Positions 1-12,039 are shown, counted from the first letter of the stretch. The stretch is DNA of 44,816 nucleotides from Clostridia bacterium (GCA_017935165.1 JAGBID010000179.1:1-44816); one strand, 5' to 3'. Notes: generated from the sequence alone by a model not told the origin. Made by a program: numbers and translations.

Positions 1-4
1 ATAA

Positions 5-2479
5 ATGAAAAAGCGTTTACTGTCACTTATACTTATATTTACCATATTATTTTCCGCTGTGCCCTTCACTTCTTTTGAGGCAGAAGCTGATACAGCCGAG
101 GCTCAGAACGTTTCCGAGGGTGTAGAAAACATTGTTAAAAGAGCAAGGCAGATGACTGAAATTGAGTGGACCCCAAAGAAAAATATCACGGGTTGGGGCT
201 ACGAATACACCTACGAGGCAGGCGTAACCTACAAGGGTCTGCCTTACGGTCAGCCTACAAATGCCAACGGCTGCCGCGGTGACTATGTACCCTGGGAAGC
301 TTCCCTTGATAAATTCTTAGCCGCCGTCAACGATGAAACAAGCCTTATTTATACTTCAAGCGCTAACTACAGCGAAATTGCACCTTACTATTCCGTTGAC
401 TGCAGCGGTTTCGTTTCCTGGGCGTGGGATTTACCCGTAAGAACAACTGCCAGCGGTATAAGAAGCTACGCAACCTTAATAAGCACAGATTCCTACGAGG
501 ATGCCGAAATAGGCGACTGCCTTTGTAATGCCTCCGCCCACGTTACCCTTATCACGGACGTTACAAGGGACTCAAACGGCAAGGTAACAAGCATTGAGAT
601 TTCAGAATCCAACGTAGGCTACGATAATAATTACTGCTGTTATTCCGTAAGATACGGTGAGGGCGGCGAATACACCCTTACCAAGTTTATGAATAAGTTT
701 ATAAACCGCGGCTACTACATTTACCGCAGTAACACAAGGGACCAGGCTGAGTACACCCACAGCTGTGCAGTACCTTTGGAAGGCGATAACTGTGACAAAT
801 GCGGTTACAGCAGTGCGGCTAATGCAAGAGATTTCATTGAAAGCACCTACCCCTCCTATGCTGAAATTGTAACCAAGGCGCCTGCAAAGGTTTACTCCTT
901 CCCCTGCACAAGCGAAGTAACAAGCGATTCCTTAAACATCCACACAACAACCGCAGGCGAAACTTTAACAGCCACGGCTTTATGCCTTAACACCAATGGC
1001 GAATACTGGTACAAGGTAAGCATAGACGGTGCAGTAGGCTATATATACGGTGGTGATACAGGCCTTAACAAGCTCCTTGACTCCGACATTACTGCCACAA
1101 ATATTGCCGAGCCCAAGGAAGTAACGGTAGGCAATCCCTTTAACCTTGGCGGTGTTTTGAAGGCTGTATATAATAAGCTTACCAAAATAGAAGTTCAGGT
1201 AACCTCCAACGGCACGGTTAACTTAAGCAGCAGCGCAAACGTTATAAATAACTCCTATAATTTAAAGAGCAGTTATATTGACAGCACCATAATTTTTAAC
1301 GATTTACTTGTAGGCAATTACGATTACGAGATTTACGTAACCGCTGAAAGGTACTACACCTCTGACGGTGCCAGCCTTAACAGCGACACAACAAAGTTCC
1401 TTATCCACGTAAACCCCTTCAAGGTTATAAGCGACATTGAGCACGATTGCGACAAGGGCAGCTTCAAATACGCAGGCGAGGCTCACCCCCATTACTCCTA
1501 CTATGAATGCTCACAGTGCGGCCTTATAAATGAATTTACCGACGAAACAAACCATATAAGCACCTGTACTCTTTGCAGACCCGAAAAACCCGTTTTAGCT
1601 GCCGAATATCAGGAGGATTGCAGCGGTGAAATAGACGTAAGCTTCAGCTGGGAAAAGGCTTCAAACGTTTCCTACTACGCCCTTACAATTTATGAAGAGC
1701 AGGCTAACGGCAACTATATGGAGACAGATTACGTAATAAATGCCGAAAGCGGTGTGGTTATACCCTTCACTTCAGGCAAATATAAGGTGATATTAACAGC
1801 TTACAACGAAAATTTTGAAGCAAGCGACGGCAACAGCCACGCATATACTGACAGCGACGAAATATATATCACAGTTTCCTCCGGCCACGAGTATGAGTCC
1901 TCCGTAAAGGCTCCTGACTGTATTTCCGAAGGCTATACACTTTACGTCTGCAAGCATTGTAAAGATGAATACAAGGAAGATATCATTCCTGCAACGGGTA
2001 TTCACACTTACAGCAACAATGCGGACGCAACCTGCAACGTGTGTGACTACGTAAGAGTGGCACCCGTCAAGTCAGTTCCCATGTACAGAATGTACGACAA
2101 AAACGGCGGCGAGCACTTCTACACAGGCAGCACCGAGGAACGCGACTTCCTTATTTCAGCAGGCTGGAGCTACGAGGGTGTAGGCTTTAACTTCCCTGCT
2201 GCAGGCAAGCCTGTCTACAGACTTTACGAGCCTATTACAGGCGAACACCTTTACACAATGGACTTAGAGGAGAAAGCAAAGCTTATTGAGGAAGGCTGGA
2301 ATGACGAGGGCGTTGCCTTCAACAGCGCTGACGAGGACGAAATTCCACAGTACCGCTTACATAACCCCAACGCATCAAGAGGTGCTTACCACTTTACAGG
2401 CAGCACCGAAGAGCGTGACATACTTATAGCCGCAGGCTGGGAATACCAGGGCATCGGCTTCTACAGCTGCAAGAGATAA
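5..2479 (+). CDS. Secreted multidomain cell-wall-associated protein. Contains a signal peptide, an NlpC/P60-like Cys-His peptidase domain, an SH3b-like segment, Cys-rich modules and three C-terminal DUF5648-like repeats.
   Basis: Hydrophobic N-terminus MKKRLLSLILIFTILFSAVPF. The DCSGFVSWAW motif plus downstream HVTLI resembles an NlpC/P60 catalytic Cys/His pair. GEYWYKVSIDGAVGYIYG looks SH3b-like. Several CxxC pairs are present. Three tandem ~40-aa units of the form YR.Y.P..GEH.YT...E...L...GW..EG..F span about 2081-2476. Confidence 0.6.
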   Translation: MKKRLLSLILIFTILFSAVPFTSFEAEADTAEAQNVSEGVENIVKRARQMTEIEWTPKKNITGWGYEYTYEAGVTYKGLPYGQPTNANGCRGDYVPWEASLDKFLAAVNDETSLIYTSSANYSEIAPYYSVDCSGFVSWAWDLPVRTTASGIRSYATLISTDSYEDAEIGDCLCNASAHVTLITDVTRDSNGKVTSIEISESNVGYDNNYCCYSVRYGEGGEYTLTKFMNKFINRGYYIYRSNTRDQAEYTHSCAVPLEGDNCDKCGYSSAANARDFIESTYPSYAEIVTKAPAKVYSFPCTSEVTSDSLNIHTTTAGETLTATALCLNTNGEYWYKVSIDGAVGYIYGGDTGLNKLLDSDITATNIAEPKEVTVGNPFNLGGVLKAVYNKLTKIEVQVTSNGTVNLSSSANVINNSYNLKSSYIDSTIIFNDLLVGNYDYEIYVTAERYYTSDGASLNSDTTKFLIHVNPFKVISDIEHDCDKGSFKYAGEAHPHYSYYECSQCGLINEFTDETNHISTCTLCRPEKPVLAAEYQEDCSGEIDVSFSWEKASNVSYYALTIYEEQANGNYMETDYVINAESGVVIPFTSGKYKVILTAYNENFEASDGNSHAYTDSDEIYITVSSGHEYESSVKAPDCISEGYTLYVCKHCKDEYKEDIIPATGIHTYSNNADATCNVCDYVRVAPVKSVPMYRMYDKNGGEHFYTGSTEERDFLISAGWSYEGVGFNFPAAGKPVYRLYEPITGEHLYTMDLEEKAKLIEEGWNDEGVAFNSADEDEIPQYRLHNPNASRGAYHFTGSTEERDILIAAGWEYQGIGFYSCKR

Positions 2480-2484
2480 AAAAC

Positions 2485-2513
2485 AGAGAGGCAATTATAA
2501 AAATTGTCTCTCT
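2485..2513. terminator. Bidirectional rho-independent terminator shared by the convergent 824-aa gene (+) and the RT gene (-)
   Basis: The ~12-bp stem agagaggcaatt / aattgtctctct has one wobble or mismatch and an ataaa loop. It has an A-tract on the left and a T-tract on the right. It fills the 35-bp gap between the two stop codons (2477-2479 and 2515-2517). Confidence 0.6.
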
Positions 2514-2514
2514 T

Positions 2515-3720
2515 TTATTTTTCCTCTTCAATTTTATAGTATTCGTGAACAAGGCTTCTGTACCCCAGCTTTTTTATATCCTCGTAGCGGAAGTCGTACA
2601 TTTTTTTGGTGTGCCTGCCTGTTGCTAAAAACCTTATATTATACTGGCAATATTCGTCTATTAATTTTAAGGATTCGTCGGTATTTATAATGGGGAAGTA
2701 CCACCTTGCCCAGGTAAGCTCCTTATCCTCTGTGTTTTCGTAAAGCTTTCTGTTGAAGGCTTTTACAAAGGCTTTGGCGGCTTTTTCGTTTGTTAGCTTC
2801 TTTCTTGCCTGCCAGCGCTTTAAGGCTCGCGCCTTCCTGCGCATTTTATCCTTCAGTTTTTTAACTGACACAGGCGAAACGTCCACCTTACCGTTATTAT
2901 AGCAAAAGCCTAAGTATACCCAGGGCTCCATAGGCTTCGTAAACTCCTCTTTTTTAGGGTTAACGCAAAGACCTTTGCTTATTAAATAGCTTTTAATTTC
3001 CTCGGATGCTTTTAAAATTTCAGCTTCATCTTCGGAAAAAACGATAATATCGTCGGAATACCTTGCATACAGAACGCCCTTTTTTTCAAAATACTTATCC
3101 ATATCCGCAAGGTATAAATTGGCAATAAAGGTTGAAACAGGTACGCCTGCCATTATGCCCTTTTTATTTTCCTCGTTTATAAGCTTCTCTCTGTCGTAAA
3201 CCAAGGTGTTATTTAAAAGAGAAATAATAAACTCAGCCGCCTCCCCGTCCTCTTTAAGTGTGCTTAAAAGCAGAGGCGTTATTTTGTCCACGGGTACGGA
3301 ATTGAAATAATCGCTTATATCCACCTTGTAGGAGTACATATTTCTTATATTTTTATAAGAAGTAAGCTTTTTCACAGCATCGCGGACAGATCTTTTCCTT
3401 CTGAAGGAGTAAAGGTTTTCGGGGAAAATATAGTCGTATTTTTCCTGCAAAAGGTAGGTTAAAAGCTTCAAAACGAAGTTTTCGCCCTCGGGAAAGGTGT
3501 AAACCACTCTTTTTTTCTCAGAACCCAGCTTGCTTATATACTTCTTTTTAGGTATGGGAAAATTTTCACCCGAAAGCATTTTGTTTACGATAGGGAGGTA
3601 CTCTTTATTTTCTATAAAAACCTTAAGGATTTTTTCGTCCCTTTTACTTAAGTGACCGCTGTTTATTTTATATTCCAAAAATTCCTGCCAAACATTTTCA
3701 AGCAAAAGCTGACTTAACAT
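2515..3720 (-). CDS. Stand-alone reverse transcriptase (RVT_1-type, 401 aa) with a group-II-like thumb region. It is not embedded in an intron and is a candidate retron-like or defence-associated RT.
   Basis: Catalytic YSDD is encoded at 3049-3060 (tat tcc gac gat on the minus strand). Motif A-like YKVDISDYFNSV, motif B-like GIMAGVPVSTFIANLYL and a LYSFRRKRSVRDAV motif are present. YLGF follows the palm domain. The C-terminal WARWYFP....LIDEY....IRFL segment resembles a maturase or thumb. A strong RBS gggagggg lies 5 nt upstream of the ATG. Confidence 0.85.
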   Translation of the reverse strand: MLSQLLLENVWQEFLEYKINSGHLSKRDEKILKVFIENKEYLPIVNKMLSGENFPIPKKKYISKLGSEKKRVVYTFPEGENFVLKLLTYLLQEKYDYIFPENLYSFRRKRSVRDAVKKLTSYKNIRNMYSYKVDISDYFNSVPVDKITPLLLSTLKEDGEAAEFIISLLNNTLVYDREKLINEENKKGIMAGVPVSTFIANLYLADMDKYFEKKGVLYARYSDDIIVFSEDEAEILKASEEIKSYLISKGLCVNPKKEEFTKPMEPWVYLGFCYNNGKVDVSPVSVKKLKDKMRRKARALKRWQARKKLTNEKAAKAFVKAFNRKLYENTEDKELTWARWYFPIINTDESLKLIDEYCQYNIRFLATGRHTKKMYDFRYEDIKKLGYRSLVHEYYKIEEEK

Positions 3721-3743
3721 ATAACCCCTCCCTTCTTAATATT

Positions 3744-3877
3744 AAAACAGAGAGAAAGTGCATTAAAGCATGCTTAACATTTCAGCATTCTACCGGGCCG
3801 TACACAGGCAGCTGCCTGCAAAGCTTATAAAGCCTGTGCTGTGCCCTTCGCAGGCGCAAAGCGTTTCTCTCTGTTTT
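3744..3877 (-). ncRNA. Candidate structured ncRNA (retron msr/msd-like) closed by a perfect 14-bp inverted repeat, lying directly upstream of the RT
   Basis: aaaacagagagaaa at 3744-3757 is the exact reverse complement of tttctctctgtttt at 3864-3877. The 106 nt between them has stop codons in all six frames and is G+C-richer. It contains four caggc/gcctg elements (3805-3809, 3814-3818, 3832-3836, 3851-3855), including the palindrome caggcagctgcctg. The element sits between the upstream stop (3899) and the RT start (3720). Strand is assumed to match the RT. Confidence 0.45.
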
Positions 3878-3898
3878 TAGCTATGTAATTTAGTTTTA

Positions 3899-4894
3899 TT
3901 ACTTAAGTGCTGCTTTTACTCTGCTTTTTACGTAGGTTTCGCTGTTACGGAAATTGGGAATAAACCTGATGGCGGGTATACCCTTTTCCTTTACAGCACT
4001 AAGAATATTACTTACCTTTCTTTCAGACAAATCACCGGTACCGAAAAGGAATATGGCAAGCTTTATTTCGCCATCCTTCCATAAAGCAAAGTCCGCTTTA
4101 ATATTTTCATCGGTTAAAATGCAGTCCTTATAAATATCATAATCACTGAAATTCTGTAAAAGTAAACCGGCAAAATAATCCTTTGGCTCGCCCCAATAGT
4201 GGTAAATATCCGCAGGGAAGTAACCATCAGTTACGCCTTTGCCAAAAAGCATATTGGCAGCTTTAAGGTCTCTTTTATTTGCATTAACCGTTATAGTCGC
4301 ATTCATACCCTTACAAACGCACTCACTAAAAGCACCAAGAATAGTGTTGTCATCCGTTCTGTCGATATAGGTAATTTTGCAGAAAGGCCCGAAAGCACTG
4401 CCGATAAACACGTTGCTGTCAAGCTGTGCATATCCATCAATAACTTTTCCCGTAAGAGTATTGCCCTTAATTTTGCTTACTGCGAATCTGAATGGTCCTG
4501 CAGGTACCTTTGAAACATCCGCCTCAGTAATAAGGGTACCGTTAATATTCGTTTCTTCATAAGGCTCCCAACTGCCGCTTACAATTTCGCCTTCATCGCT
4601 TTCAATTTCCCATTCACCCTCGTAGGTAATATCCTCTTCGGATGCTTCCCAGCTGCCGCTATAAATAACTTCCTCCTCTTTGTTTTCATCGGGAAGCTCT
4701 ATCTCGATTTCATCAACGGGGACATATTTTTCCTCTTTTTTCTCCTCAGCTTTATTTTCGCTTGTACCAATGCCTAATTTTTCACGGAGGTGTTCCATCG
4801 AATAGGTAAGTCCGCACTCAATGCAGGTAGCGCCCTTGCCGCCCTTGTTGATTTCCAAAGTACCGCCGCAGAGGTCGCAGGTAAGTTTTTTCAT
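3899..4894 (-). CDS. Hypothetical protein and candidate RT-associated effector. Domains in order: N-terminal zinc ribbon, acidic SGSWE-repeat linker, beta-barrel resembling translation-factor domain II, and a C-terminal DUF2726-like (PD-(D/E)xK-fold-like) domain.
   Basis: CDLCGG...CIECG forms the zinc ribbon at aa 6-27. The E/D-rich tract carries two SGSWE units at aa 45-115. aa 131-220, PFRFAVSKIKGNTLTGKVIDG...MLFGKG, follows the EF-Tu domain 2 spacing pattern. The tail ADFALWKDGEIKLAIFLFG....KGIPAIRF follows the DUF2726 pattern vDFvl...laIEldg...GiPvlRf, but with F where the acidic residue is expected. RBS aaggag lies 7 nt before the ATG. That it is coding is secure; the domain calls are from memory. 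Confidence 0.5.
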   Translation of the reverse strand: MKKLTCDLCGGTLEINKGGKGATCIECGLTYSMEHLREKLGIGTSENKAEEKKEEKYVPVDEIEIELPDENKEEEVIYSGSWEASEEDITYEGEWEIESDEGEIVSGSWEPYEETNINGTLITEADVSKVPAGPFRFAVSKIKGNTLTGKVIDGYAQLDSNVFIGSAFGPFCKITYIDRTDDNTILGAFSECVCKGMNATITVNANKRDLKAANMLFGKGVTDGYFPADIYHYWGEPKDYFAGLLLQNFSDYDIYKDCILTDENIKADFALWKDGEIKLAIFLFGTGDLSERKVSNILSAVKEKGIPAIRFIPNFRNSETYVKSRVKAALK

Positions 4895-4923
4895 AATTTT
4901 GCTCCTTAATTTATATTAAATTA

Positions 4924-5340
4924 TTATTTTTCCGTTTCGTACTGCCAGGTTAAAATCCCGCCGAATTCATAGATATTTTCGTAGCCAAGCTCTGCTAAAA
5001 TTTTGGAAGCCTCTTTACTTCTTCTGCCGCTTCTGCAGTAAACAAGAGTTTTTATATCCTTTTCCTTAATAACTTTAATTGCTTCTTCCTCAGCTTTATT
5101 GCTCTTTAAAACACTTAAAGGTAAAAGCACAGCGCCCTTTATATGGCTTTCGGCGTATTCTTCCGCTTCCCTTACGTCCACTATAAGCACATTTTCCGTG
5201 TCCATAATTTCCTTAGCCATATCCTGAGTGATTTCGGTATATCCGTAAATATTTTTCTCCATTTTAATTTCTCCTTCACTTTTCCCGCAGGAAACTAAAA
5301 GTAATATTATTAATAAAATAAAAATAATCAGCTTTTTCAT
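4924..5340 (-). CDS. Rhodanese-domain lipoprotein (sulfurtransferase-like)
   Basis: Lipoprotein signal with lipobox LLVSC. Single rhodanese domain with active-site loop CRSGRRS. Its start overlaps the upstream gene stop in an ATGA arrangement. Confidence 0.8.
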   Translation of the reverse strand: MKKLIIFILLIILLLVSCGKSEGEIKMEKNIYGYTEITQDMAKEIMDTENVLIVDVREAEEYAESHIKGAVLLPLSVLKSNKAEEEAIKVIKEKDIKTLVYCRSGRRSKEASKILAELGYENIYEFGGILTWQYETEK

Positions 5341-5687
5341 TTTCTTAAAATTTTCTCCATAGCCTTGCCTTTACTCAGTTCATCCACAAGCTTATCAAGG
5401 TAACGGATTTCAAGCATTAATGGGTCGTCAATACTTTCAAGTTTAACTCCACAGACCGAACCCTTTATAAGGCGGCGGTTTTCATTTAAAGAGGGTGCAT
5501 TCCTGAAAAAATCCCCGTAACTTATTTCACTTTCAAGGCATTTTGCTATATCTTCATAACTGTAGCCTGTAAGCCAGCAGCTTACTTCCAGCACTTCGTT
5601 TTTAGTTCTGCCCTTTCTTTCTGCTTTATTTATAAGCAGCAGGTAGACCTTTTTAAAGCTCATATCAAATATTTTATCATTTGCCAC
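5337..5687 (-). CDS. DUF2200-family protein
   Basis: 116 aa. KAERKGRTKNEV...WLTGY...FF.NAP...LIKGSVCGVKLE.IDDPLM..IRYLDKLVDEL.KGKAMEKIL matches my recollection of DUF2200. GTG start, with AGGAGG 7 nt upstream. Confidence 0.6.
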   Translation of the reverse strand: MANDKIFDMSFKKVYLLLINKAERKGRTKNEVLEVSCWLTGYSYEDIAKCLESEISYGDFFRNAPSLNENRRLIKGSVCGVKLESIDDPLMLEIRYLDKLVDELSKGKAMEKILRK

Positions 5688-5710
5688 AGCATCCCCTCCT
5701 TTTAAATATT

Positions 5711-5739
5711 ATTGTACCCCAAAGCTATAAATTTTGCAA
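5711..5739 (-). promoter_or_regulatory. Putative sigma-A promoter for the DUF2200 / rhodanese / Zn-ribbon gene / ncRNA / RT string
   Basis: On the minus strand: TTGCAA (5739-5734), a 17-nt spacer, then TACAAT (5716-5711). This lies about 25 nt upstream of the GTG start at 5687. Confidence 0.4.
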
Positions 5740-5745
5740 CAAGGC

Positions 5746-5774
5746 TTTACTTAGTTTGAAAATGTTTTTATAAT
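5746..5774 (+). promoter_or_regulatory. Putative sigma-A promoter for the glycerate kinase gene
   Basis: TTTACT (5746-5751), a 17-nt spacer, then TATAAT (5769-5774). This lies 32 nt upstream of the ATG at 5807. Confidence 0.35.
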
Positions 5775-5806
5775 AGAACTATAAAAATTTTGATTTTGGT
5801 GGTAAT

Positions 5807-6946
5807 ATGAAAGTTACTGTAGCTATTGATTCTTTTAAAGGCAGCCTCAGTTCCCTTGAGGCAGGAAGCGCTGTAAAGGAAGGCATACTTAAAGTATACG
5901 AAAATGCTGAGGTTAAGGTATTCCCATTAGCTGATGGCGGTGAAGGCACAAGTGAGGCTTTGACCCTCGGTATGGGCGGAGAGCTTATAAACACAGAGGT
6001 TCACGACCCACTTATGCGAAAGATTGATGCAGCTTACGGAATAATAAAAAATGAAAGGCTTGCCATAATGGAGATGGCATCTGCCTCCGGCATTACCCTT
6101 GTAAATGAAAGTGAACGCGATATTTTAAAAGCCACCACCTACGGCGTAGGCGAGATGATAAAGGACGCTATAAAAAAGGGTGCAAGAAACTTCATAATAG
6201 GCATAGGAGGCAGCGCCACCAACGATTGCGGCAGCGGTATGCTTATGGCTTTAGGCTTTGATATACTTGATAAAGAGGGTAATAAAATTCCCCTTGGTGC
6301 CATAGGTTTAAAGGACGCTTACAGAATTGAAAGCAAAAATGTAATTCCTGAGCTTAAGGACTGCAGCTTTAAAATTGCCTGCGACGTTAAAAACCCCTTA
6401 TGCGGCGAGCTTGGCTGCAGTAATATTTACGGACCTCAGAAAGGTGCCACAAAGGAAAATATTCCATTAATGGATTCCTACATCTCTCATTTTGCAGATG
6501 TAACAAAAGGATTTAACTCTGATGCCGACAAGGATTACCCGGGCACAGGTGCCGCAGGAGGCTTAGGCTTTGCTTTCAAATACTTTTTAAACGGCGAATT
6601 AAAAAAGGGTGCGGAGATAGTTACCGAAAGCATTAAAATCGAGGAGGATATAAAGGACAGCGACCTTGTTATAACGGGCGAAGGCAGGCTTGACAGCCAG
6701 ACCGTTATGGGTAAAGCGCCAAGTGCAGTTGCAAGCCTTGCAAAAAAACACGGAAAGTCCTGCATTGCTTTCTCAGGCTGTGTAAGTGAGGATGCCGCTC
6801 TCTGTAATGAAAAGGGAATTGACGCCTTTTTCCCCATACTTAGAAATGTGGTTACCCTTGATGAAGCTCTTGACGTAAATAATGCCTATGAGAACGCAAA
6901 AAACACAGCCGAGCAGGTTATGAGGCTTATTAAAATATTTAAATAA
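5807..6946 (+). CDS. glxK: Glycerate kinase
   Basis: MKVTVAIDSFKGSLSS N-terminus, PLADGGEGT, and GEGRLDSQT..GKAP near the C-terminus are hallmark glycerate kinase (GlxK/GarK) motifs. Length is 379 aa. RBS is ggtgg. Confidence 0.9.
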   Translation: MKVTVAIDSFKGSLSSLEAGSAVKEGILKVYENAEVKVFPLADGGEGTSEALTLGMGGELINTEVHDPLMRKIDAAYGIIKNERLAIMEMASASGITLVNESERDILKATTYGVGEMIKDAIKKGARNFIIGIGGSATNDCGSGMLMALGFDILDKEGNKIPLGAIGLKDAYRIESKNVIPELKDCSFKIACDVKNPLCGELGCSNIYGPQKGATKENIPLMDSYISHFADVTKGFNSDADKDYPGTGAAGGLGFAFKYFLNGELKKGAEIVTESIKIEEDIKDSDLVITGEGRLDSQTVMGKAPSAVASLAKKHGKSCIAFSGCVSEDAALCNEKGIDAFFPILRNVVTLDEALDVNNAYENAKNTAEQVMRLIKIFK

Positions 6947-6966
6947 AAGTCATTTTCATAAAAGAG

Positions 6967-6997
6967 AAACGGGAGAATTTAACTCCCGTTTTCTTTT
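6967..6997 (+). terminator. Rho-independent terminator after the glycerate kinase gene
   Basis: 9-bp stem aaacgggag / ctcccgttt (6967-6975 / 6983-6991) with loop aatttaa, followed by a T-rich tail. Confidence 0.7.
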
Positions 6998-7077
6998 AAC
7001 TGAGCAATTTTGTTATTGCTTTAAAATTCTTTTTATATTAAACTTTGATTAATAGAATGGAATTGAAGGTGCGGAAA

Positions 7078-8763
7078 ATGGATACAAGCTACACTAAAAA
7101 TACTCCTGCTGAAGAACTTGCAAATATATTTATGAAAACTATTGAAAAGGAAGCTATTATTGCCGAGATTTTCAATTTCTTTGAGTTTTCACCCATTGCC
7201 CGCTGTAACGAGGACCCCGGTAAAATTGATAACCCCATAAAGGACTTTATAGATTCAGATTACAGCGATATAAACACCCTTGTAAAAATTATCAATATTG
7301 TTAAAAAGGGCTCCGAAAATTCCGAAAAACAGGAAAAGGAGCTGGTGGAAAAGGTAAAACGCTTTACCGAAAACCACCTTACCGAAAACTTAGGCATTGA
7401 GGATATAGCGGAAAGCATTCACGTAAGCTACTACTACCTTTGTCACATTTTCAAACAGCAGACGGGGATGTCCATTAATACCTATAAAAATATGAAGCGC
7501 ATTGAAAAGGCTATAAAGAAGCTTTCCCTTTCCGATGCAAAAATAGCCGACATAGCCTCAAACTGCGGTTTTAACAACATAAGCTATTTTGCCGAGGTTT
7601 TCACAAGATTTACAGGTCTTTCCCCTACAGCCTTCAAGCAGAAAATTAAGGATATGAAAATCCACAGCTTCTATGAGCTTAACGATATGCTCCTTGCAAG
7701 CAAAATGGATTTTAAAAGCTTTTTAAGTGAGGATATTGAAAAGCTCAGCGATAAAGTATTTGACGTTTCCTCCGTAAACGACCCTGATGCTGAATTTAAA
7801 TTCCTCCACGAAACTGCAATAATTGAATTTAAAAACGTCCTATATGCCGCCTGGTACGAATGTCCCGAAAACGAGCTTATGGGTTACACACCTATTGTGG
7901 GCAAACGCTCCTACGACGGCGGTAAAACCTGGACGGAGAAAGAGATAATTGCCAAGCCTGAAGAAGGCAGCGACAATATTCTTTTTTGCCCGCCTGTTTA
8001 CGGAATTTGTGACGGCAAGCTATATATTTTACTTAACGAAATGGTGGCGCCCGACCACATCCACGCCCTCGATTTATACGTTCTTGATGAGGAAAGTGAC
8101 AAATTCAAATTCCTTTGGTCAAGACCTATTCCCTTCAAGCTCAATACAAACACAGTAAGTCTTTCAAACGGCAAGCTTATGCTGCCGGGAAGAATAGCCG
8201 AAATGGACTCCTTCCCCAATACTCCCGCAGTTTTAATTTCTGACGACGGCAAGATAGACAGCAATTGGCGACTTGTTAAAATAGCGGAAAACGGCGACTT
8301 AGTGGACGAAAGCAAGCTTATTCACCCTGAAATAACTGTTATTGAACACGGAAAAATACTTTATATGTTCTGCCGTAACGATATGCGCCACGTGCCTCTC
8401 CTTTATATTTCAAAGGATTTCGGCGAAAGCTGGAGCAAGGAAACAGCAATTGACATACCCTTTGTAAGCACAAAAATATACGCAGGCACCCTTAAGGACG
8501 GCAGAAATTATATTATCTGCAATACCGATAATCTTGACAGAAGCAAGCTTACAGTTTATTTCTCCGAGAAAAACAAAATGGTATTTAATAAGGAGCTTAC
8601 CTTATTTGACAGGGAAAGCGAGCGCCTGCCTTTTGTTACAGCCTGCCACTACCCTGCCGCAACCGAAAGCGGTAACAAGCTTTATATTATAGCTACCAAA
8701 AACTTCGAAACCTTTATAAAGCGCGGCGCCGTGCTTTTCACCGTAGACCTTGATAAAATTTAA
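7078..8763 (+). CDS. AraC-family HTH regulator fused to a C-terminal BNR/Asp-box sialidase-like beta-propeller domain
   Basis: HTH_AraC signature IEDIAESIHVSYYYLCHIFKQQTGMS...IADIASNCGFNNISYFAEVFTRFTGLSPTAFK. Asp-boxes SYDGGKTW (about 7908-7934) and SKDFGESW (about 8410-8436). No signal peptide. I prefer the ATG at 7078 (RBS gaaggtg) over the TTG at 7045 in the ORF track. Confidence 0.7.
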   Translation: MDTSYTKNTPAEELANIFMKTIEKEAIIAEIFNFFEFSPIARCNEDPGKIDNPIKDFIDSDYSDINTLVKIINIVKKGSENSEKQEKELVEKVKRFTENHLTENLGIEDIAESIHVSYYYLCHIFKQQTGMSINTYKNMKRIEKAIKKLSLSDAKIADIASNCGFNNISYFAEVFTRFTGLSPTAFKQKIKDMKIHSFYELNDMLLASKMDFKSFLSEDIEKLSDKVFDVSSVNDPDAEFKFLHETAIIEFKNVLYAAWYECPENELMGYTPIVGKRSYDGGKTWTEKEIIAKPEEGSDNILFCPPVYGICDGKLYILLNEMVAPDHIHALDLYVLDEESDKFKFLWSRPIPFKLNTNTVSLSNGKLMLPGRIAEMDSFPNTPAVLISDDGKIDSNWRLVKIAENGDLVDESKLIHPEITVIEHGKILYMFCRNDMRHVPLLYISKDFGESWSKETAIDIPFVSTKIYAGTLKDGRNYIICNTDNLDRSKLTVYFSEKNKMVFNKELTLFDRESERLPFVTACHYPAATESGNKLYIIATKNFETFIKRGAVLFTVDLDKI

Positions 8764-8776
8764 CTTTCAAAAAAGT

Positions 8777-8802
8777 AAAGCAGGATTTTTACATCCTGCT
8801 TT
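8777..8802. terminator. Bidirectional terminator between the AraC-BNR gene (+) and the DegV gene (-)
   Basis: 10-bp stem aaagcaggat / atcctgcttt with loop ttttac, flanked by A- and T-tracts. Confidence 0.7.
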
Positions 8803-8805
8803 ATT

Positions 8806-9663
8806 TTATGCGTTTGCGCCCAGCTTTTCAAAGCCTACCAAAAGTCCGCCCTTTTCTGCGTAGAAGCTGCAAAGACCTCTTGTTTTGCTTATTTCAACTA
8901 TGGAATTAAAGGTATTTTCAATCATTTTCTTTAATTCCAAAGCAGCCTTTTCGTTAAAACAGTGGCTGATTTTCACCTTGCCGCCAACGTGGCCCAAGCT
9001 TTTCATTCTCTCCACAATTGCCTGCAAGCCTTTCTGCTCGCCGCGGCACTTGTCAAGGGGCTCTAAAGTACCTTTGTCGCTGGCTTTACCAACTATTCTT
9101 ATGCCTAAAAGTCCCACCGCCTTAGCTACAAGAGGGCTGACTCTGCCATTGTTGGCAAAGTTTTTCATAGATTCCAGCATAAAAACAAGCCCTGTGTGCT
9201 TTTTATATTCCTCAATTTCCTTTGCGATAATTTCGAAAGTCTTGCCTTCCTTTATAAGCTCTATAAGCTTTTCAATAATAAGCTTTAACTCAGGTCCTGC
9301 TGAAAGGGAGTCAATAACGTGAACCTTTCTGCCGGGATTATTAAACTCATAATCCCTTTTAGCCACCATAGCGGCATTGTAGCTGCCTGAAAGACCGCTT
9401 GTTATGGTAACGCAGTATATGTTTTTACCACCTTCGAAAGCCTTTAAGTAGTCGCCTATACCCGGGCAGGCAGAGGAAGATTTACCGTTATACTTTAAAA
9501 GCTCGTTTACCATAGCCTCAGTATCAAGGTAAGCATTATCCACGTATTCCTTTTTATCGGTAACAATTTTCATAGGAGCCGCCGCAAAAGGAAGGTCCTT
9601 TAATATAAAAGTGTCAGCAGAAGAATCTGCTACTATCTTATTCTCATAAACTATATTTGTCAT
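8806..9663 (-). CDS. DegV-family fatty-acid-binding protein
   Basis: 285 aa. Typical DegV layout: N-terminal DSSADT and ITSGLSGSYNAA motifs. Confidence 0.85.
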   Translation of the reverse strand: MTNIVYENKIVADSSADTFILKDLPFAAAPMKIVTDKKEYVDNAYLDTEAMVNELLKYNGKSSSACPGIGDYLKAFEGGKNIYCVTITSGLSGSYNAAMVAKRDYEFNNPGRKVHVIDSLSAGPELKLIIEKLIELIKEGKTFEIIAKEIEEYKKHTGLVFMLESMKNFANNGRVSPLVAKAVGLLGIRIVGKASDKGTLEPLDKCRGEQKGLQAIVERMKSLGHVGGKVKISHCFNEKAALELKKMIENTFNSIVEISKTRGLCSFYAEKGGLLVGFEKLGANA

Positions 9664-9820
9664 ATTCCATACCTTGCCTTACGGCACCTTTCCTTAATTA
9701 AAATAATTAACAGTCGATTTTTGTTGTTTGCTCAACATTACACCTTATATTATATTAAATTTTCCAAAAATTTTCAAGCGCAGGCAAGCGATATTAACAA
9801 AAGCTTTAAAATTGTTGCAC

Positions 9821-9854
9821 AAAAAATTAAGCCTGCAGATTTCTGCAAGCTTAA
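9821..9854 (-). terminator. Rho-independent terminator after the MgtC-family gene
   Basis: Stem ttaagcctgca / tgcaagcttaa (9827-9837 / 9844-9854), with one wobble in the minus-strand RNA. It is followed on the minus strand by TTTTTT (9826-9821). Confidence 0.6.
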
Positions 9855-9858
9855 TATA

Positions 9859-10581
9859 TCAGTTAAGTTCTTCAATATGGTAAACGTAATCCAGGGTACT
9901 TAAAGCTTCAATTATCTCCTTGTGTGTCTTATATTTTTTAAGCTCCTCACTTCTTATTGTAAGTGCTACAGTAAAAACACTCAGGCCTGAATTGATATAG
10001 GCGGGGTTGGCTTCAATATCGTCTATTTTCAGGTTAAGCTTTCTTATTGTGGTAACAAAGTCCTGAAGGTTTGTTTTGTTCTTAAGCTCAAGGTGAATTT
10101 CAAAGTGGTTTGAACGGTTCTTAAGGTAAAATTCAAGCTTCGGGAAAAATGAAAGGCAAACTATCAGAGCAAAATAAGCAATTACTGCAGCTGTGTAAAA
10201 ACCTGCACCTAAAGCTATACCTATAATTCCGCTTGCCCAAAGACCTACAGAGGTGGTTAAGCCCTTTATCTGATTTTTTGAGCTGAATATCAAAGTATTG
10301 CTGCTGATTATTGCAATGCCTATCATGGTAGCGGCTGAAATAATGGGTATATTCCAGCTGTTTCCCTCACATATAAACGTATCCAGCATAACCGCCATAC
10401 TTGTAGCAAGGGACACAAGCATAAAGGTTCGAAGTCCTGCTGCGTGACGCTTTGTAGCTCGCTCACAGCCAAGAATAGCTGAAAATATAACTGCCACCAA
10501 AGTACGCAGCAGTACAGAATAAACGTTAAGCTCAGTTGACCAAGCTCCTAAAAATAAAGCAATCGGGTCTTTTATATCCAT
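9859..10581 (-). CDS. MgtC/SapB-family membrane protein
   Basis: CERATKRHAAGLRTFMLVSLATSM motif, four to five TM helices and a soluble C-terminal domain. I prefer the ATG at 10581 (aaggag 8 nt upstream) over the GTG at 10590 in the track. Confidence 0.8.
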   Translation of the reverse strand: MDIKDPIALFLGAWSTELNVYSVLLRTLVAVIFSAILGCERATKRHAAGLRTFMLVSLATSMAVMLDTFICEGNSWNIPIISAATMIGIAIISSNTLIFSSKNQIKGLTTSVGLWASGIIGIALGAGFYTAAVIAYFALIVCLSFFPKLEFYLKNRSNHFEIHLELKNKTNLQDFVTTIRKLNLKIDDIEANPAYINSGLSVFTVALTIRSEELKKYKTHKEIIEALSTLDYVYHIEELN

Positions 10582-10599
10582 AATACACACTCCTTTTCC

Positions 10600-12039
10600 T
10601 TATCTGCGGTTTCTGAAATTGGAAATTCGCTGATTCGGGCTTAAATACAGTTCTTCGGCAGCCTCGTTAAAGGCGTCTTCTTCCTCCTCATATAGTGAAT
10701 GAGGGGGAATTTCCTTTTGTATAGCCTGAATCCTTCTTACTAAAATCTCAGCATCGCTGAGCTTCTCACCGTCGGGTCCTGTTTCCTCAATTTCCGTTAT
10801 CTCCTCCAGCTTATCGGAATAAGAACCTGAAAGCTTAAGGGAAAGAGCTGCAGCAGCAGGGCCCACTATCTCACACAGTATGCTTGCGGCAAGAATAATT
10901 GTTTCAAGGTCACTGCCCATTTTACCGCCAATGGTTCTTGCTGCCAGAGAGGCAAGGCCTATTGCCACACTTGCCTGAGGGATAAGTGCAAGACCTAAGT
11001 GATTTCTTACCTTTTTGTCCTTTCGGGTAACTGCACATCCTAAAAAAGCGCCTGCATATTTACCGATTATTCTGACGGCGAAATAACATATACCAACTAC
11101 AAGTAACGGCATTCCCGTGCTTGACGCCGAGAAATCAAACATAGCCCCAAGGTTGAAGTTAAGTCCGCTTCGAACAAAGAACAAAAGAAGTATAGGCGGA
11201 CTGAAGTAATTAAGCTGTTTAAAAAGCTTATCATCCTCGGTTATATTTATATAAACGGTACCCATCATAAGGCAGCCTAAAAGGGGTGAAACATCCAGAA
11301 GCGCGCAAATTCCGCAGAAAGCAAAAAGCATACTTACGGAAATAATAAGTCTGTTATCCGTGGAACGTTTTTTAGGCATCGATAATTTCATTAAGAAAGC
11401 AAAGCCTGCGCCTAAAGCCAATGCAAAAACGTTGGTTATTATAGGTTCTAAAATATCCTTAAAGCTTAAAACCGCCGCGCTTGAAATTGTGGTGAAAGCC
11501 ACGGAAACCGCCACGCTGTAAGCTATAAGACTCAGCACGTTATCGATCGCCACAACCTGCAATAGGGTATCAACAAAGTCGCCTTTTGCGCCCGTTTGCC
11601 TTATAGTCATTATGGTGGAGGCAGGGGTTGTAGCTGAAGCCAGCGCCGCAAATATAATTGAGAAGCCTAAGCCTAAATTCAGTATAAAATAGGTAAGGAT
11701 AAATACGAAAAGTGACGCTGTTAAAGCTTCTGCCGCTGTAATTATAAGTACCCTTGGTCCGTTTTTCTTAAGAGTGCTTATTTTGAAAAATTCACCTACA
11801 CTGAAGGCTATAAAGGCAAGTGCAATATCCGAAAGGAAGTCAAGTCCTTTTACTATGTCAGTAGGAATCAGATTACAGCAGTAAGGTCCGATTATTATGC
11901 CCGTTAAAATGTAACCCGTTACGTTTGGCAGGTGGAGCCTTTTTGTAATTCTGGTGGAAAGGAACCCTAAGAACAGCATCAAAGCTATTGAAATAATAAC
12001 CGATGCCGCGCCTGAAAGTCCTTCAATATATTGAGCCAT
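10600..12039 (-). CDS. Cation:proton antiporter (Na+/H+ exchanger family, CPA-type) with an acidic C-terminal tail
   Basis: 479 aa with about 12 predicted TM helices. N-terminus LHLPNVTGYILTGIIIGP is typical of Kef/NapA-type exchangers. Strong RBS aaggagg. Confidence 0.8.
   Translation of the reverse strand: MAQYIEGLSGAASVIISIALMLFLGFLSTRITKRLHLPNVTGYILTGIIIGPYCCNLIPTDIVKGLDFLSDIALAFIAFSVGEFFKISTLKKNGPRVLIITAAEALTASLFVFILTYFILNLGLGFSIIFAALASATTPASTIMTIRQTGAKGDFVDTLLQVVAIDNVLSLIAYSVAVSVAFTTISSAAVLSFKDILEPIITNVFALALGAGFAFLMKLSMPKKRSTDNRLIISVSMLFAFCGICALLDVSPLLGCLMMGTVYINITEDDKLFKQLNYFSPPILLLFFVRSGLNFNLGAMFDFSASSTGMPLLVVGICYFAVRIIGKYAGAFLGCAVTRKDKKVRNHLGLALIPQASVAIGLASLAARTIGGKMGSDLETIILAASILCEIVGPAAAALSLKLSGSYSDKLEEITEIEETGPDGEKLSDAEILVRRIQAIQKEIPPHSLYEEEEDAFNEAAEELYLSPNQRISNFRNRR

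What the first reader, a model, noticed from the sequence alone, without database searches (positions are those of the whole stretch)
2515..3720. The RT does not look like a canonical retron, DGR or intron RT
Seen in the sequence: the palm motifs are complete (YKVDISDYFNSV, GVPVSTFIANLYL, RYSDDIIVF). After the palm, the protein has YLGF where, as I recall, retron RTs carry a conserved VTG motif. LYSFRRKRSVRDAV sits where retron RTs have an NAxxH-type motif. The C-terminal segment WARWYFP...LIDEY...IRFL resembles the group II intron maturase/thumb pattern (GWxNYF...LD...R+R). Only 178 nt of non-coding sequence lie upstream and 35 nt downstream, which leaves no room for intron domains I-VI. Motif B (S-T, then FIANLYL) is somewhat DGR-like (SQ, FFANVYL), but no template/variable repeat pair is visible. 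Inference: this is a group-II-like or unknown-group RT recruited to a new context. Hand counts of individual 60-nt lines gave about 25-42% G+C inside the RT gene. The same count gave about 38-60% in the neighbouring genes, including the Zn-ribbon gene, which hints at separate acquisition. This needs a proper calculation.
Basis: partly seen in the sequence, partly recalled or inferred. Interest (0 to 1): 0.6.

Follow-up and report, generated by a model that had tools for sequence, protein, structure and literature searches.

The report
UG26 reverse transcriptase with RT-5 RNA
The gene encodes an intact stand-alone reverse transcriptase of the catalogued but experimentally untested UG26 group, a defence-type relative of group II intron enzymes; it sits beside its usual partner RNA (Rfam RT-5) and accessory protein, so "not a retron, DGR or intron" is correct but the class and its context are already known.

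Summary
Retron VTG and NAxxH motifs are absent. No intron RNA domain and no TR/VR repeat pair were found.

The protein matches PADLOC RT_UG26 end to end (E 7.8e-166). The next model, UG27, scores E 4e-33. Group II maturase, retron and Drt2/3/4/5 models all fall below their curated cut-offs. UG26 is a Class 2 UG/Abi group (Mestre 2022).

The predicted structure (pLDDT 93) is closest to the group II intron RT GsI-IIC (Z 31 over 366 residues). DRT9 (Z 24), DRT2 (Z 22) and retron RTs (Z 18) are more distant.

The 178-nt upstream spacer holds the Rfam RT-5 RNA (71 bits). This is a pseudoknotted ncRNA found with UG26 RTs in 21 loci, and in sampled genomes it occurs only where a UG26 RT occurs. The upstream gene is the known COG2852-like UG26 partner.

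The suspected G+C anomaly is not real. The RT is 38.0% G+C against a genome mean of 40.8 ± 3.3%, and its GC3 and codon usage are typical.

Most likely this is an ncRNA-guided DNA-synthesis module of the DRT kind, with unknown product. The scan has found the same cassette on other DNA.

The parts
2515..3720 (-). UG26 reverse transcriptase, 401 aa, with an intact active site (D134, Y221-S222-D223-D224, K257, LGF 270-272)
   Evidence: PADLOC RT_UG26 E 7.8e-166, covering residues 2-399 against model positions 4-397 of 398. Pfam RVT_1 E 2.2e-23. AlphaFold2 model pLDDT 93.3. VIA-align Z 31.1 to GsI-IIC RT over model residues 1-398. Invariant catalytic columns in the 24-sequence alignment A2.
3744..3877 (-). 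RT-5 ncRNA (Rfam RF03026) with its closing stem P1. The 5' arm is 3864-3877 and the 3' arm 3744-3757. The Rfam core is 3755-3859. The pseudoknot strands are 3849-3855 and 3814-3820.
   Evidence: Rfam 71.1 bits against a gathering score of 45.7, E 2.9e-13, full model 1-104. My own covariance model R1 scores 119.7 bits. The pseudoknot is 98.6% paired, with 5 of 7 pairs compensatory; core covariation is 0.548 against 0.25 in shuffles (0 of 500 reach it). P1 is 8-18 bp, with different sequences in different loci.
3899..4894 (-). Accessory protein, 331 aa. It has an N-terminal CxxC...CxxC zinc ribbon, an acidic linker, an EF-Tu-domain-2-like barrel and a C-terminal COG2852/DUF559-like alpha-beta domain (about residues 235-331).
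   Evidence: PADLOC RTasCOG2852 E 1.7e-7 on residues 229-330. My own profile of the C-terminal domain finds it directly upstream of RT-5 in 11 UG26 loci. AlphaFold2 model: C-terminal domain pLDDT about 90, whole protein 66.9. The middle domain gives weak but consistent EF-Tu/eEF1A domain 2 matches. Alignment A1 shows no invariant acidic or His residue.
2485..2513 (.). Hairpin terminator shared by the convergent RT gene and DUF5648 gene
   Evidence: 12-bp stem followed by a T-run; sequence read.
3037..3063 (-). RT motif C (RYSDDIIVF, catalytic YSDD)
   Evidence: invariant Y221, S222, D223 and D224 in A2.
2626..2712 (-). Thumb (group II intron domain-X-like) segment, WARWYFP ... LIDEY ... IRFL
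   Evidence: W337, F342, D355 and R363 are invariant in A2; the structural alignment to GsI-IIC runs through this region.

Best explanation
The RT is the catalytic subunit of a UG26 module (Class 2 UG/Abi). Three parts lie on one strand: an accessory protein, the roughly 134-nt pseudoknotted RT-5 ncRNA, and an RT with full group II intron RT architecture (N-terminal extension, fingers, YSDD palm, X-like thumb, C-terminal domain).

Shown here:
- membership of UG26;
- an intact active site;
- an ncRNA conserved by covariation that co-occurs strictly with the RT;
- the partner gene present in about half of the loci.

Inferred by analogy with the characterised Class 2 systems DRT2, DRT9 and DRT10:
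- The RT binds RT-5 RNA as scaffold and template.
- It copies a short part of that RNA into a defined, probably repetitive, cDNA.
- Accumulation of the cDNA on phage infection blocks phage growth.
- The nuclease-fold protein, which lacks the usual catalytic residues, acts as an optional sensor, binder or effector adaptor and not as a nuclease.

The template, the primer and the product are unknown.
For: Family assignment:
- PADLOC RT_UG26 549.7 bits, full length. The runner-up, UG27, scores 112.9 bits.
- TIGR04416 (group II RT/maturase) 108.6 bits against a cut-off of 300; retron St85 65.7 against 235; Drt2 75.2 against 390; Drt3a 64.1 against 200.
- Mestre 2022 places UG26 in Class 2 and records the COG2852 partner in 9 of 35 members.

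ncRNA:
- Rfam RT-5 at 3755-3859.
- 17 of 20 UG26 loci carry it on the RT strand, and 21 loci are found with my own model.
- Covariation includes a pseudoknot and a closing stem P1 that varies in sequence.
- In the 151 genomes sampled from the class, RT-5 is found only in G000, G056, G070 and G131. These are exactly the genomes of that sample with a UG26 match at E<1e-100.
- There is one RT-5 copy in the window's own genome.

The RNA looks like a separate unit:
- It lies 7.3 kb from the RT in G158 and 1.2 kb away in G290, with a gene on the other strand between them there.
- A -10 hexamer matching at least 5 of 6 positions lies 2-12 nt before P1 in 10 of 20 loci, against 1.2 expected; 0 of 2000 controls reach 10.

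Other points:
- Characterised Class 2 UG systems all use an ncRNA template (DRT10 preprint).
- The cassette sits among unrelated housekeeping genes in every locus examined and is patchy (12 of 217 genera), as expected of a mobile accessory module.
Against: - No experiment exists on any UG26 member. Mestre 2022 rated its defence association "inconclusive".
- None of the six loci examined lies in a recognisable defence island.
- I could not identify a template. A search for A-B-A' repeats around the conserved UUNAA junction is not above chance (P 0.15). No stop-free circular reading frame is conserved.
- The RNA-seq contigs available show only low-depth cover of the RT 5' end and of the partner, and none of the ncRNA.
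- The partner is missing from about 45% of loci, so it cannot be essential.
Confidence: 0.62

Rival explanations
1. The module works like a retron. The stem-closed RNA upstream of the RT would be an msr/msd analogue, with P1 as the a1/a2 repeats. The RT would prime from a 2'-OH of a conserved G and make a branched msDNA that holds the accessory protein in check.
For: The layout is superficially retron-like: an inverted-repeat-closed ncRNA directly 5' of the RT plus an accessory gene. Weinberg 2017 speculated that the RT-1 to RT-19 motifs might take part in retrons.
Against: Retron RT models score far below UG26 and below their cut-offs: retron St85 65.7 bits against 235, and PADLOC retron RT models E around 1e-15 to 1e-17. 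There is no VTG or NAxxH motif. Retron RTs are the most distant bacterial RT structures in the comparison, at Z 17-18 against 31 for GsI-IIC. The RNA core is a compact pseudoknot without a long msd hairpin.
Confidence: 0.1
2. It is a domesticated group-II-intron-like RT with a housekeeping role, such as DNA repair like G2L4, and not a defence system. RT-5 would be a regulatory or chaperoned RNA.
For: The best structural matches are GsI-IIC (Z 31), other intron RTs (Z 26-27) and G2L4 (Z 27). Neighbours are housekeeping genes and there is no defence island. The partner has a Vsr/DUF559-like, repair-type fold. No close relatives were found on phages or plasmids.
Against: The distribution is patchy (20 of 399 genomes, 12 of 217 genera, and not found in the other genomes of the same family that were searched), and each locus has a different genomic context. 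This fits an accessory, horizontally moving cassette and not a core function. All characterised UG relatives act in phage defence. The partner lacks conserved catalytic residues.
Confidence: 0.15
3. It is a remnant or ORF-only copy of a mobile group II intron, or a DGR reverse transcriptase whose partner elements lie elsewhere.
For: The thumb and motif 2a (LYSFRxxRSxxDA) resemble intron RTs. TIGR04416 aligns over residues 10-363.
Against: TIGR04416 scores 108.6 bits against its cut-off of 300. No intron RNA family was found at E<=1 in 2300-5100. Only 178 and 35 nt flank the ORF. There is no TR/VR pair within 12 kb. The DGR RT structure is more distant, at Z 24.8. The conserved flanking RNA is RT-5 in 21 loci.
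Confidence: 0.03
4. It acts by a DRT2-like mechanism: rolling-circle copying of the whole ncRNA into a concatemer that encodes a stop-free "neo" gene.
For: DRT2 is a Class 2 relative with an upstream ncRNA. DRT2 Z is 22.
Against: No circular stop-free frame exists for the window's RNA on either strand, with or without P1, and none is conserved across the 18 homologues tested. The Drt2 model scores 75 bits against 390.
Confidence: 0.05

Closest known systems
UG26 group of Class 2 UG/Abi reverse transcriptases, with associated cluster 1531 (COG2852/YcjD-like) (Mestre et al. 2022, PMC9226505; PADLOC models RT_UG26 and RTasCOG2852)
   Same: Full-length HMM match. The RT carries no fused domain. 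The partner gene with a COG2852-like domain lies directly upstream. The host is a Clostridia gut bacterium.
   Different: The paper describes no ncRNA for UG26 and reports the partner in 9 of 35 members. Here RT-5 RNA accompanies essentially every UG26 RT, and the partner is present in 11 of 20 species-level loci. The window's partner is a rare long form with a zinc ribbon and an EF-Tu-D2-like barrel. Only four other sequences of that form were found in 5.8 billion.
Rfam RF03026, RT-5 RNA motif (Weinberg et al. 2017, PMC5737381)
   Same: Full model match above the gathering score, upstream of an RT gene.
   Different: The 2017 paper assigned no RT class and no function, and speculated about retrons. 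Here the motif is tied to UG26 RTs, has an outer closing stem P1 and a small 5' hairpin outside the Rfam model, and often has its own -10 element.
GsI-IIC and other group II intron RTs (PDB 6ar1, 7uim, 8t2r)
   Same: Best structural match (Z 31.1, rmsd 3.4 A, 366 residues, model 1-398 against chain 3-418). Motif 2a and the X/thumb motif are shared.
   Different: Identity is 18-21%. There is no intron RNA. The protein falls below the intron maturase family cut-off. The partner RNA is a 134-nt pseudoknot.
DRT9 (UG28), DRT10 (UG17) and DRT2 (UG2): the characterised Class 2 systems
   Same: A stand-alone RT with a cognate structured ncRNA encoded just upstream, and an optional or required extra protein (SLATT in DRT10). 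A hairpin (P5) sits immediately 5' of a conserved single-stranded junction, as the template boundary stem-loop does in DRT10.
   Different: These are different UG groups (E 1e-21 to 1e-31 against 1e-166). The ncRNA family differs. The partner is a nuclease-fold protein and not SLATT. No poly-U template loop, A-B-A' motif or neo-type frame could be demonstrated. The priming mode is unknown.
UG27 (gut-phage RT with ncRNA)
   Same: Second-best HMM match (E 4.2e-33). It also carries an intergenic ncRNA.
   Different: UG27 is phage-borne and has partner clusters 337 and 346. Its ncRNA has three long stem-loops. UG26 is chromosomal, and no close relative was found in the phage or plasmid collections.

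Membership tests
UG26 (Class 2 UG/Abi RT) | Full-length match to the group's profile, clearly better than to any other RT group | tested here: met
   RT_UG26 E 7.8e-166, 549.7 bits, model positions 4-397 of 398. The next model, UG27, scores 112.9 bits. The same result comes from the genome search.
UG26 (Class 2 UG/Abi RT) | RT not fused to any other known domain (the Class 2 criterion of Mestre 2022) | tested here: met
   401 aa. Pfam finds only RVT_1. The model aligns end to end with a fingers-palm-thumb-D RT.
UG26 (Class 2 UG/Abi RT) | Co-location with the cluster 1531 / COG2852-like protein (optional; 9 of 35 in the paper) | tested here: met
   RTasCOG2852 E 1.7e-7 on the C-terminal domain of the upstream gene. 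The same domain lies upstream in 11 loci.
UG26 (Class 2 UG/Abi RT) | Anti-phage function | not testable with these tools
   No experimental report was found. Mestre 2022 rated the defence prediction inconclusive.
Rfam RT-5 RNA | Score above the curated gathering threshold over the whole model | tested here: met
   71.1 bits against 45.7, model 1-104 of 104.
Retron RT | Retron RT profile above cut-off, plus retron-specific motifs (VTG, NAxxH) | tested here: not met
   Retron St85 65.7 bits against a cut-off of 235. No VTG or NAxxH in the protein.
Retron RT | Production of branched msDNA | not testable with these tools
   This needs nucleic-acid extraction from expressing cells.
Group II intron RT/maturase | Family profile above cut-off | tested here: not met
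   TIGR04416 108.6 bits against a cut-off of 300.
Group II intron RT/maturase | ORF embedded in intron RNA domains I-VI | tested here: not met
   No intron family was found in an Rfam scan at E<=1 of 2300-5100. The flanks are 178 nt and 35 nt.
DGR | TR/VR repeat pair near the RT | tested here: not met
   There is no such repeat in 1-12000. The contig starts 2.5 kb beyond the RT, so only one side is fully seen.
DRT2 / DRT3 / DRT4 / DRT5 / DRT9 | NCBIfam or PADLOC profile at family level | tested here: not met
   Drt2 75.2 bits against 390, Drt3a 64.1 against 200, Drt4 27.2 against 450, Drt5 28.1 against 550. PADLOC Drt9 E 1.5e-26 against UG26 E 7.8e-166.
DRT10-type telomerase-like template | A-B-A' repeat in a template loop after a boundary stem-loop | tested here: inconclusive
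   Short repeats flank the UUNAA junction in many homologues, but they are not above shuffled controls (P 0.15).

The most novel reading that the evidence does not exclude
UG26 with RT-5 RNA is an uncharacterised ncRNA-templated DNA-synthesis system. Its enzyme is the free-standing UG-type RT that structurally most resembles a group II intron RT. Its RNA is a trans-acting pseudoknotted scaffold that can sit kilobases from the RT gene. Its optional partner is a catalytically degenerate nuclease fold. Experiments might reveal a cDNA product or priming mode different from those of DRT2, DRT9 and DRT10, and a link between intron RTs and Class 2 defence RTs.
Probability: 0.3. Interest if true: 0.7.

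Novelty: new member of a known kind. Interest (0 to 1): 0.35.

Why it matters
The finding settles what this RT is. It is a typical member of a group catalogued in 2022 that nobody has tested.

Its value is as a candidate for study. The cassette is compact at about 2.4 kb, the active site is intact, the ncRNA has very well supported structure, and the RT has the full architecture of the biotechnologically used GsI-IIC enzyme. Every Class 2 UG system studied so far (DRT2, DRT9, DRT10) has revealed an unexpected mode of DNA synthesis, so UG26/RT-5 is a reasonable next one to try.

The explicit pairing of UG26 with Rfam RT-5 was not found in the literature I could search. The same holds for the evidence that the RNA is its own transcription unit. 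Other reports of this scan have noted the UG26/RT-5 pairing.

Tried and rejected
- G+C or codon anomaly of the RT: rejected.
- DGR repeats: none found.
- Intron or retron RNA families: none found.
- Telomerase-like A-B-A' template motif next to the conserved UUNAA junction. Eye-catching repeats exist (for example AUGC-UUUA-AUGC in the window), but the longest-repeat statistic over 21 homologues is not above mononucleotide shuffles (sum 88 against 83.2 ± 4.1, P 0.15).
- DRT2-like stop-free circular frame: absent in the window and not conserved. Only two boundary choices were tested.
- The third copy of the P1 3'-arm core (CTCTCTGTTTT) in the RT terminator is real in the window but absent downstream of the RT in all other loci examined, so it is probably coincidental terminator similarity.
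- Expression evidence. Only assembled contigs were available. One bovine metatranscriptome has low-depth contigs over 3524-3725 and 4091-4283, none over the ncRNA, and no joints. This says nothing about RNA ends or cDNA.
- Synteny with same-family genomes, to show that the cassette is an insertion: the relatives are too diverged and no conserved flank was found.
- The partner model gave no Foldseek match at E<=0.001.

Full report
**Observation**

The minus-strand ORF at 2515-3720 encodes 401 aa. Motif A lies at residues 131-142, motif B at 192-204 and the YSDD motif C at 220-228. The LGF motif is at 269-272 and the motif-2a-like LYSFRRKRSVRDAV at 103-116. The thumb segment WARWYFP ... LIDEY ... 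IRFL spans 337-365.

The protein has no VTG and no NAxxH. The flanking non-coding stretches are exactly 178 nt (3721-3898) and 35 nt (2480-2514). The 35-nt stretch is a hairpin terminator shared with the convergent DUF5648 gene. No TR/VR-like repeat lies within 12 kb. A permissive Rfam scan finds no intron or retron RNA.

**Composition**

The G+C hint does not survive calculation.

- The RT is 38.0% G+C, against 40.8% for the 2.39-Mb genome. Windows of 1206 nt have sd 3.3%, so the RT is at the 19th percentile.
- Its GC3 of 46% is at the 68th percentile of 1188 long ORFs.
- Its codon usage is at the 41st percentile.
- The low total comes from GC2 of 27%, which reflects amino-acid composition. 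The neighbouring rhodanese and DUF2200 genes are as low or lower.

**Family assignment**

PADLOC's RT_UG26 profile matches end to end (E 7.8e-166, 549.7 bits). The next profiles are UG27 (112.9 bits) and UG17 (104.8 bits).

The curated NCBIfam models all miss their cut-offs by a wide margin:

| Model | Score (bits) | Cut-off (bits) |
|---|---|---|
| Group II intron RT/maturase | 108.6 | 300 |
| Retron St85 | 65.7 | 235 |
| Drt2 | 75.2 | 390 |
| Drt3a | 64.1 | 200 |
| Drt4 | 27.2 | 450 |
| Drt5 | 28.1 | 550 |

UG26 is one of the "unknown groups" of Mestre et al. 2022 (PMC9226505). It belongs to Class 2, whose RTs carry no fused domain. The paper listed 35 members, 9 of them next to a COG2852/YcjD-like protein (cluster 1531). 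It rated the defence association inconclusive and described no ncRNA for the group. I found no later paper on UG26, and no DRT number assigned to it.

**Structure**

An AlphaFold2 model built on 24 homologues is confident (pLDDT 93.3, pTM 0.87). By sequence, the nearest solved proteins are group II intron RTs (7uim at E 1.4e-16, GsI-IIC at E 2.1e-15).

By fold, the ranking is as follows:

| Structure | Z |
|---|---|
| GsI-IIC RT (rmsd 3.4 A, 366 residues, model 1-398 on chain 3-418) | 31.1 |
| Other group II intron RTs | 26-27 |
| G2L4 | 27.0 |
| DGR RT | 24.8 |
| DRT9 | 24.4 |
| DRT2 | 22.2 |
| Retron RTs | 17-18 |

The enzyme is a free-standing RT with complete intron-RT architecture.

**The spacer is an RNA gene**

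The 178-nt spacer contains Rfam RT-5 (RF03026) at 3755-3859. It scores 71.1 bits against a gathering score of 45.7, over the full model. Weinberg et al. 2017 described RT-1 to RT-19 only as motifs near RT genes, possibly retron parts.

I collected UG26 loci from species-representative genomes. RT-5 lies upstream of the RT on the same strand in 17 of 20 loci by Rfam, and in 21 loci with my own covariance model, which includes the outer stem.

The structure is well supported:

- The 7-bp pseudoknot joins the 5' strand GCCUGCG to the apical loop UGCAGGC. It is 98.6% paired, and 5 of its 7 pairs show compensatory changes.
- Over the core, 24 of 29 pairs change on both sides. The covariation score is 0.548, against 0.25 in shuffles (0 of 500 reach it) and at most 0.18 when partners are slid.
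- An outer stem P1 of 8-18 bp closes every copy. It has several unrelated sequences and is usually followed by a U-run.
- A small variable hairpin precedes the pseudoknot strand (read from the alignment).

**Linkage of RNA and RT**

In a 151-genome sample of the class, RT-5 occurs only in G000, G056, G070 and G131. These are exactly the sampled genomes with a UG26 match below 1e-100. The window's own genome has one copy of each.

In G158 the RNA lies 7.3 kb upstream of the RT. In G290 it lies 1.2 kb upstream, with a glycoside-hydrolase-like gene on the other strand between them. Both elements are intact in each case.

A -10 element matching at least 5 of 6 positions sits 2-12 nt before P1 in 10 of 20 loci, against 1.2 expected by chance; 0 of 2000 controls reach 10. 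These are mainly loci without the partner gene. In the window the best -10 is a weak TAAATT. The RNA therefore appears to be a transcription unit of its own that begins at P1 and can act in trans.

**Partner**

The upstream gene (3899-4894, 331 aa) matches PADLOC RTasCOG2852 in its last 100 residues (E 1.7e-7). A profile of that domain finds it directly upstream of RT-5 in 11 of the 20 strong UG26 loci, usually as a 154-177-aa protein.

The window's form adds a zinc ribbon, an acidic linker and a barrel with weak EF-Tu domain 2 similarity. Only four other such long forms turned up among 5.8 billion proteins.

No acidic or histidine residue is invariant in the shared domain. The positions that carry the ExD of DUF559 proteins (recalled from memory, not tested here) read F-L-F in the window. 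An active nuclease is therefore unlikely. Because about 45% of loci lack the gene, RNA plus RT is the core of the module.

**Context**

Genes flanking the cassette differ in every locus examined and are housekeeping genes: an AlaX-like protein, MFS and MatE transporters, an amylase, a short-chain dehydrogenase and TrkH. The group is patchy, occurring in 20 of 399 genomes and 12 of 217 genera of the class, and it was not found in the other genomes of the same family that were searched.

No close relative occurs in the phage or plasmid collections. The best matches there are 23-29% identical and are intron RTs or uncharacterised gut-phage RTs. DNA holders of the stretch are animal gut and rumen metagenomes.

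**Mechanism**

Membership, active-site integrity, RNA conservation and RNA-RT linkage are shown. The rest is inference from the Class 2 relatives, all of which copy part of a cognate ncRNA:

- DRT2 does rolling-circle copying primed from the RNA 3' end.
- DRT9 makes protein-primed poly-dA.
- DRT10 makes protein-primed tandem repeats, set by an A-B-A' template after a boundary stem-loop.

RT-5 has a comparable layout. A hairpin (P5) is followed by a conserved single-stranded UUNAA junction and then the P1 3' arm. However, I could not show an A-B-A' motif above chance (P 0.15), nor a conserved stop-free circular frame. The invariant Y379 and the nearly invariant Y387 in the C-terminal domain are candidates for a priming residue, but I did not test this.

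**Verdict**

This is a new member of a known, uncharacterised kind. Other reports of this scan reached the same identification for the RNA and the partner in this window, and for similar cassettes in other genomes.

Noticed in passing
G158:C18 (RT 59195-60388, RT-5 67682-67786; loci L012/L030) and G290:C38 (loci L009/L029): The RT-5 RNA and its UG26 RT are separated by 7.3 kb in G158. In G290 they are 1.2 kb apart, with a GH43-like gene on the opposite strand between them. Both elements are intact, which suggests the RNA works in trans.
   Followed up: partly
Upstream of P1 in L009, L011, L008, L015, L017, L003 (TATAAT) and L013, L019, L021, L018: A near-consensus -10 hexamer lies 2-12 nt before the closing stem of RT-5 in 10 of 20 loci, mostly those without the partner gene. 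The window itself has only a weak TAAATT.
   Followed up: yes
window 2480-2490 and 3744-3754: The 11-mer CTCTCTGTTTT (minus strand) ends both the RT-5 closing stem and the terminator after the RT. This is not seen downstream of the RT in any other locus examined, so it is probably coincidence.
   Followed up: yes
L019:1-1463 (-): Downstream of this UG26 RT lie two copies of a zinc-ribbon protein whose CxxC...CxxC N-terminus resembles that of the window's partner. A 314-aa protein of unknown function lies between them.
   Followed up: no
L005:5287-5468 (-): A TwoAYGGAY RNA (RF01731, 56.9 bits) lies just downstream of this UG26 RT, on the opposite strand.
   Followed up: no
window 2123-2187 and 2396-2460: A 65-nt direct repeat (77% identical) lies inside the DUF5648 gene. 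It reflects the tandem C-terminal domain repeats of that secreted protein and is not a DGR TR/VR pair.
   Followed up: partly
window 5711-5739 (-) and 4920-4948 (-): Promoter-like sites lie upstream of DUF2200 (TTGCAA-17-TACAAT) and just upstream of the partner gene. The cassette could be read through from the DUF2200-rhodanese operon.
   Followed up: no
L020-L023 (G131, G287, G309, G151): These are divergent UG26-like RTs (E 1e-81 to 1e-105). Their RT-5-like RNA is below the Rfam threshold or undetected, so they may form a sister subgroup with a diverged RNA.
   Followed up: partly
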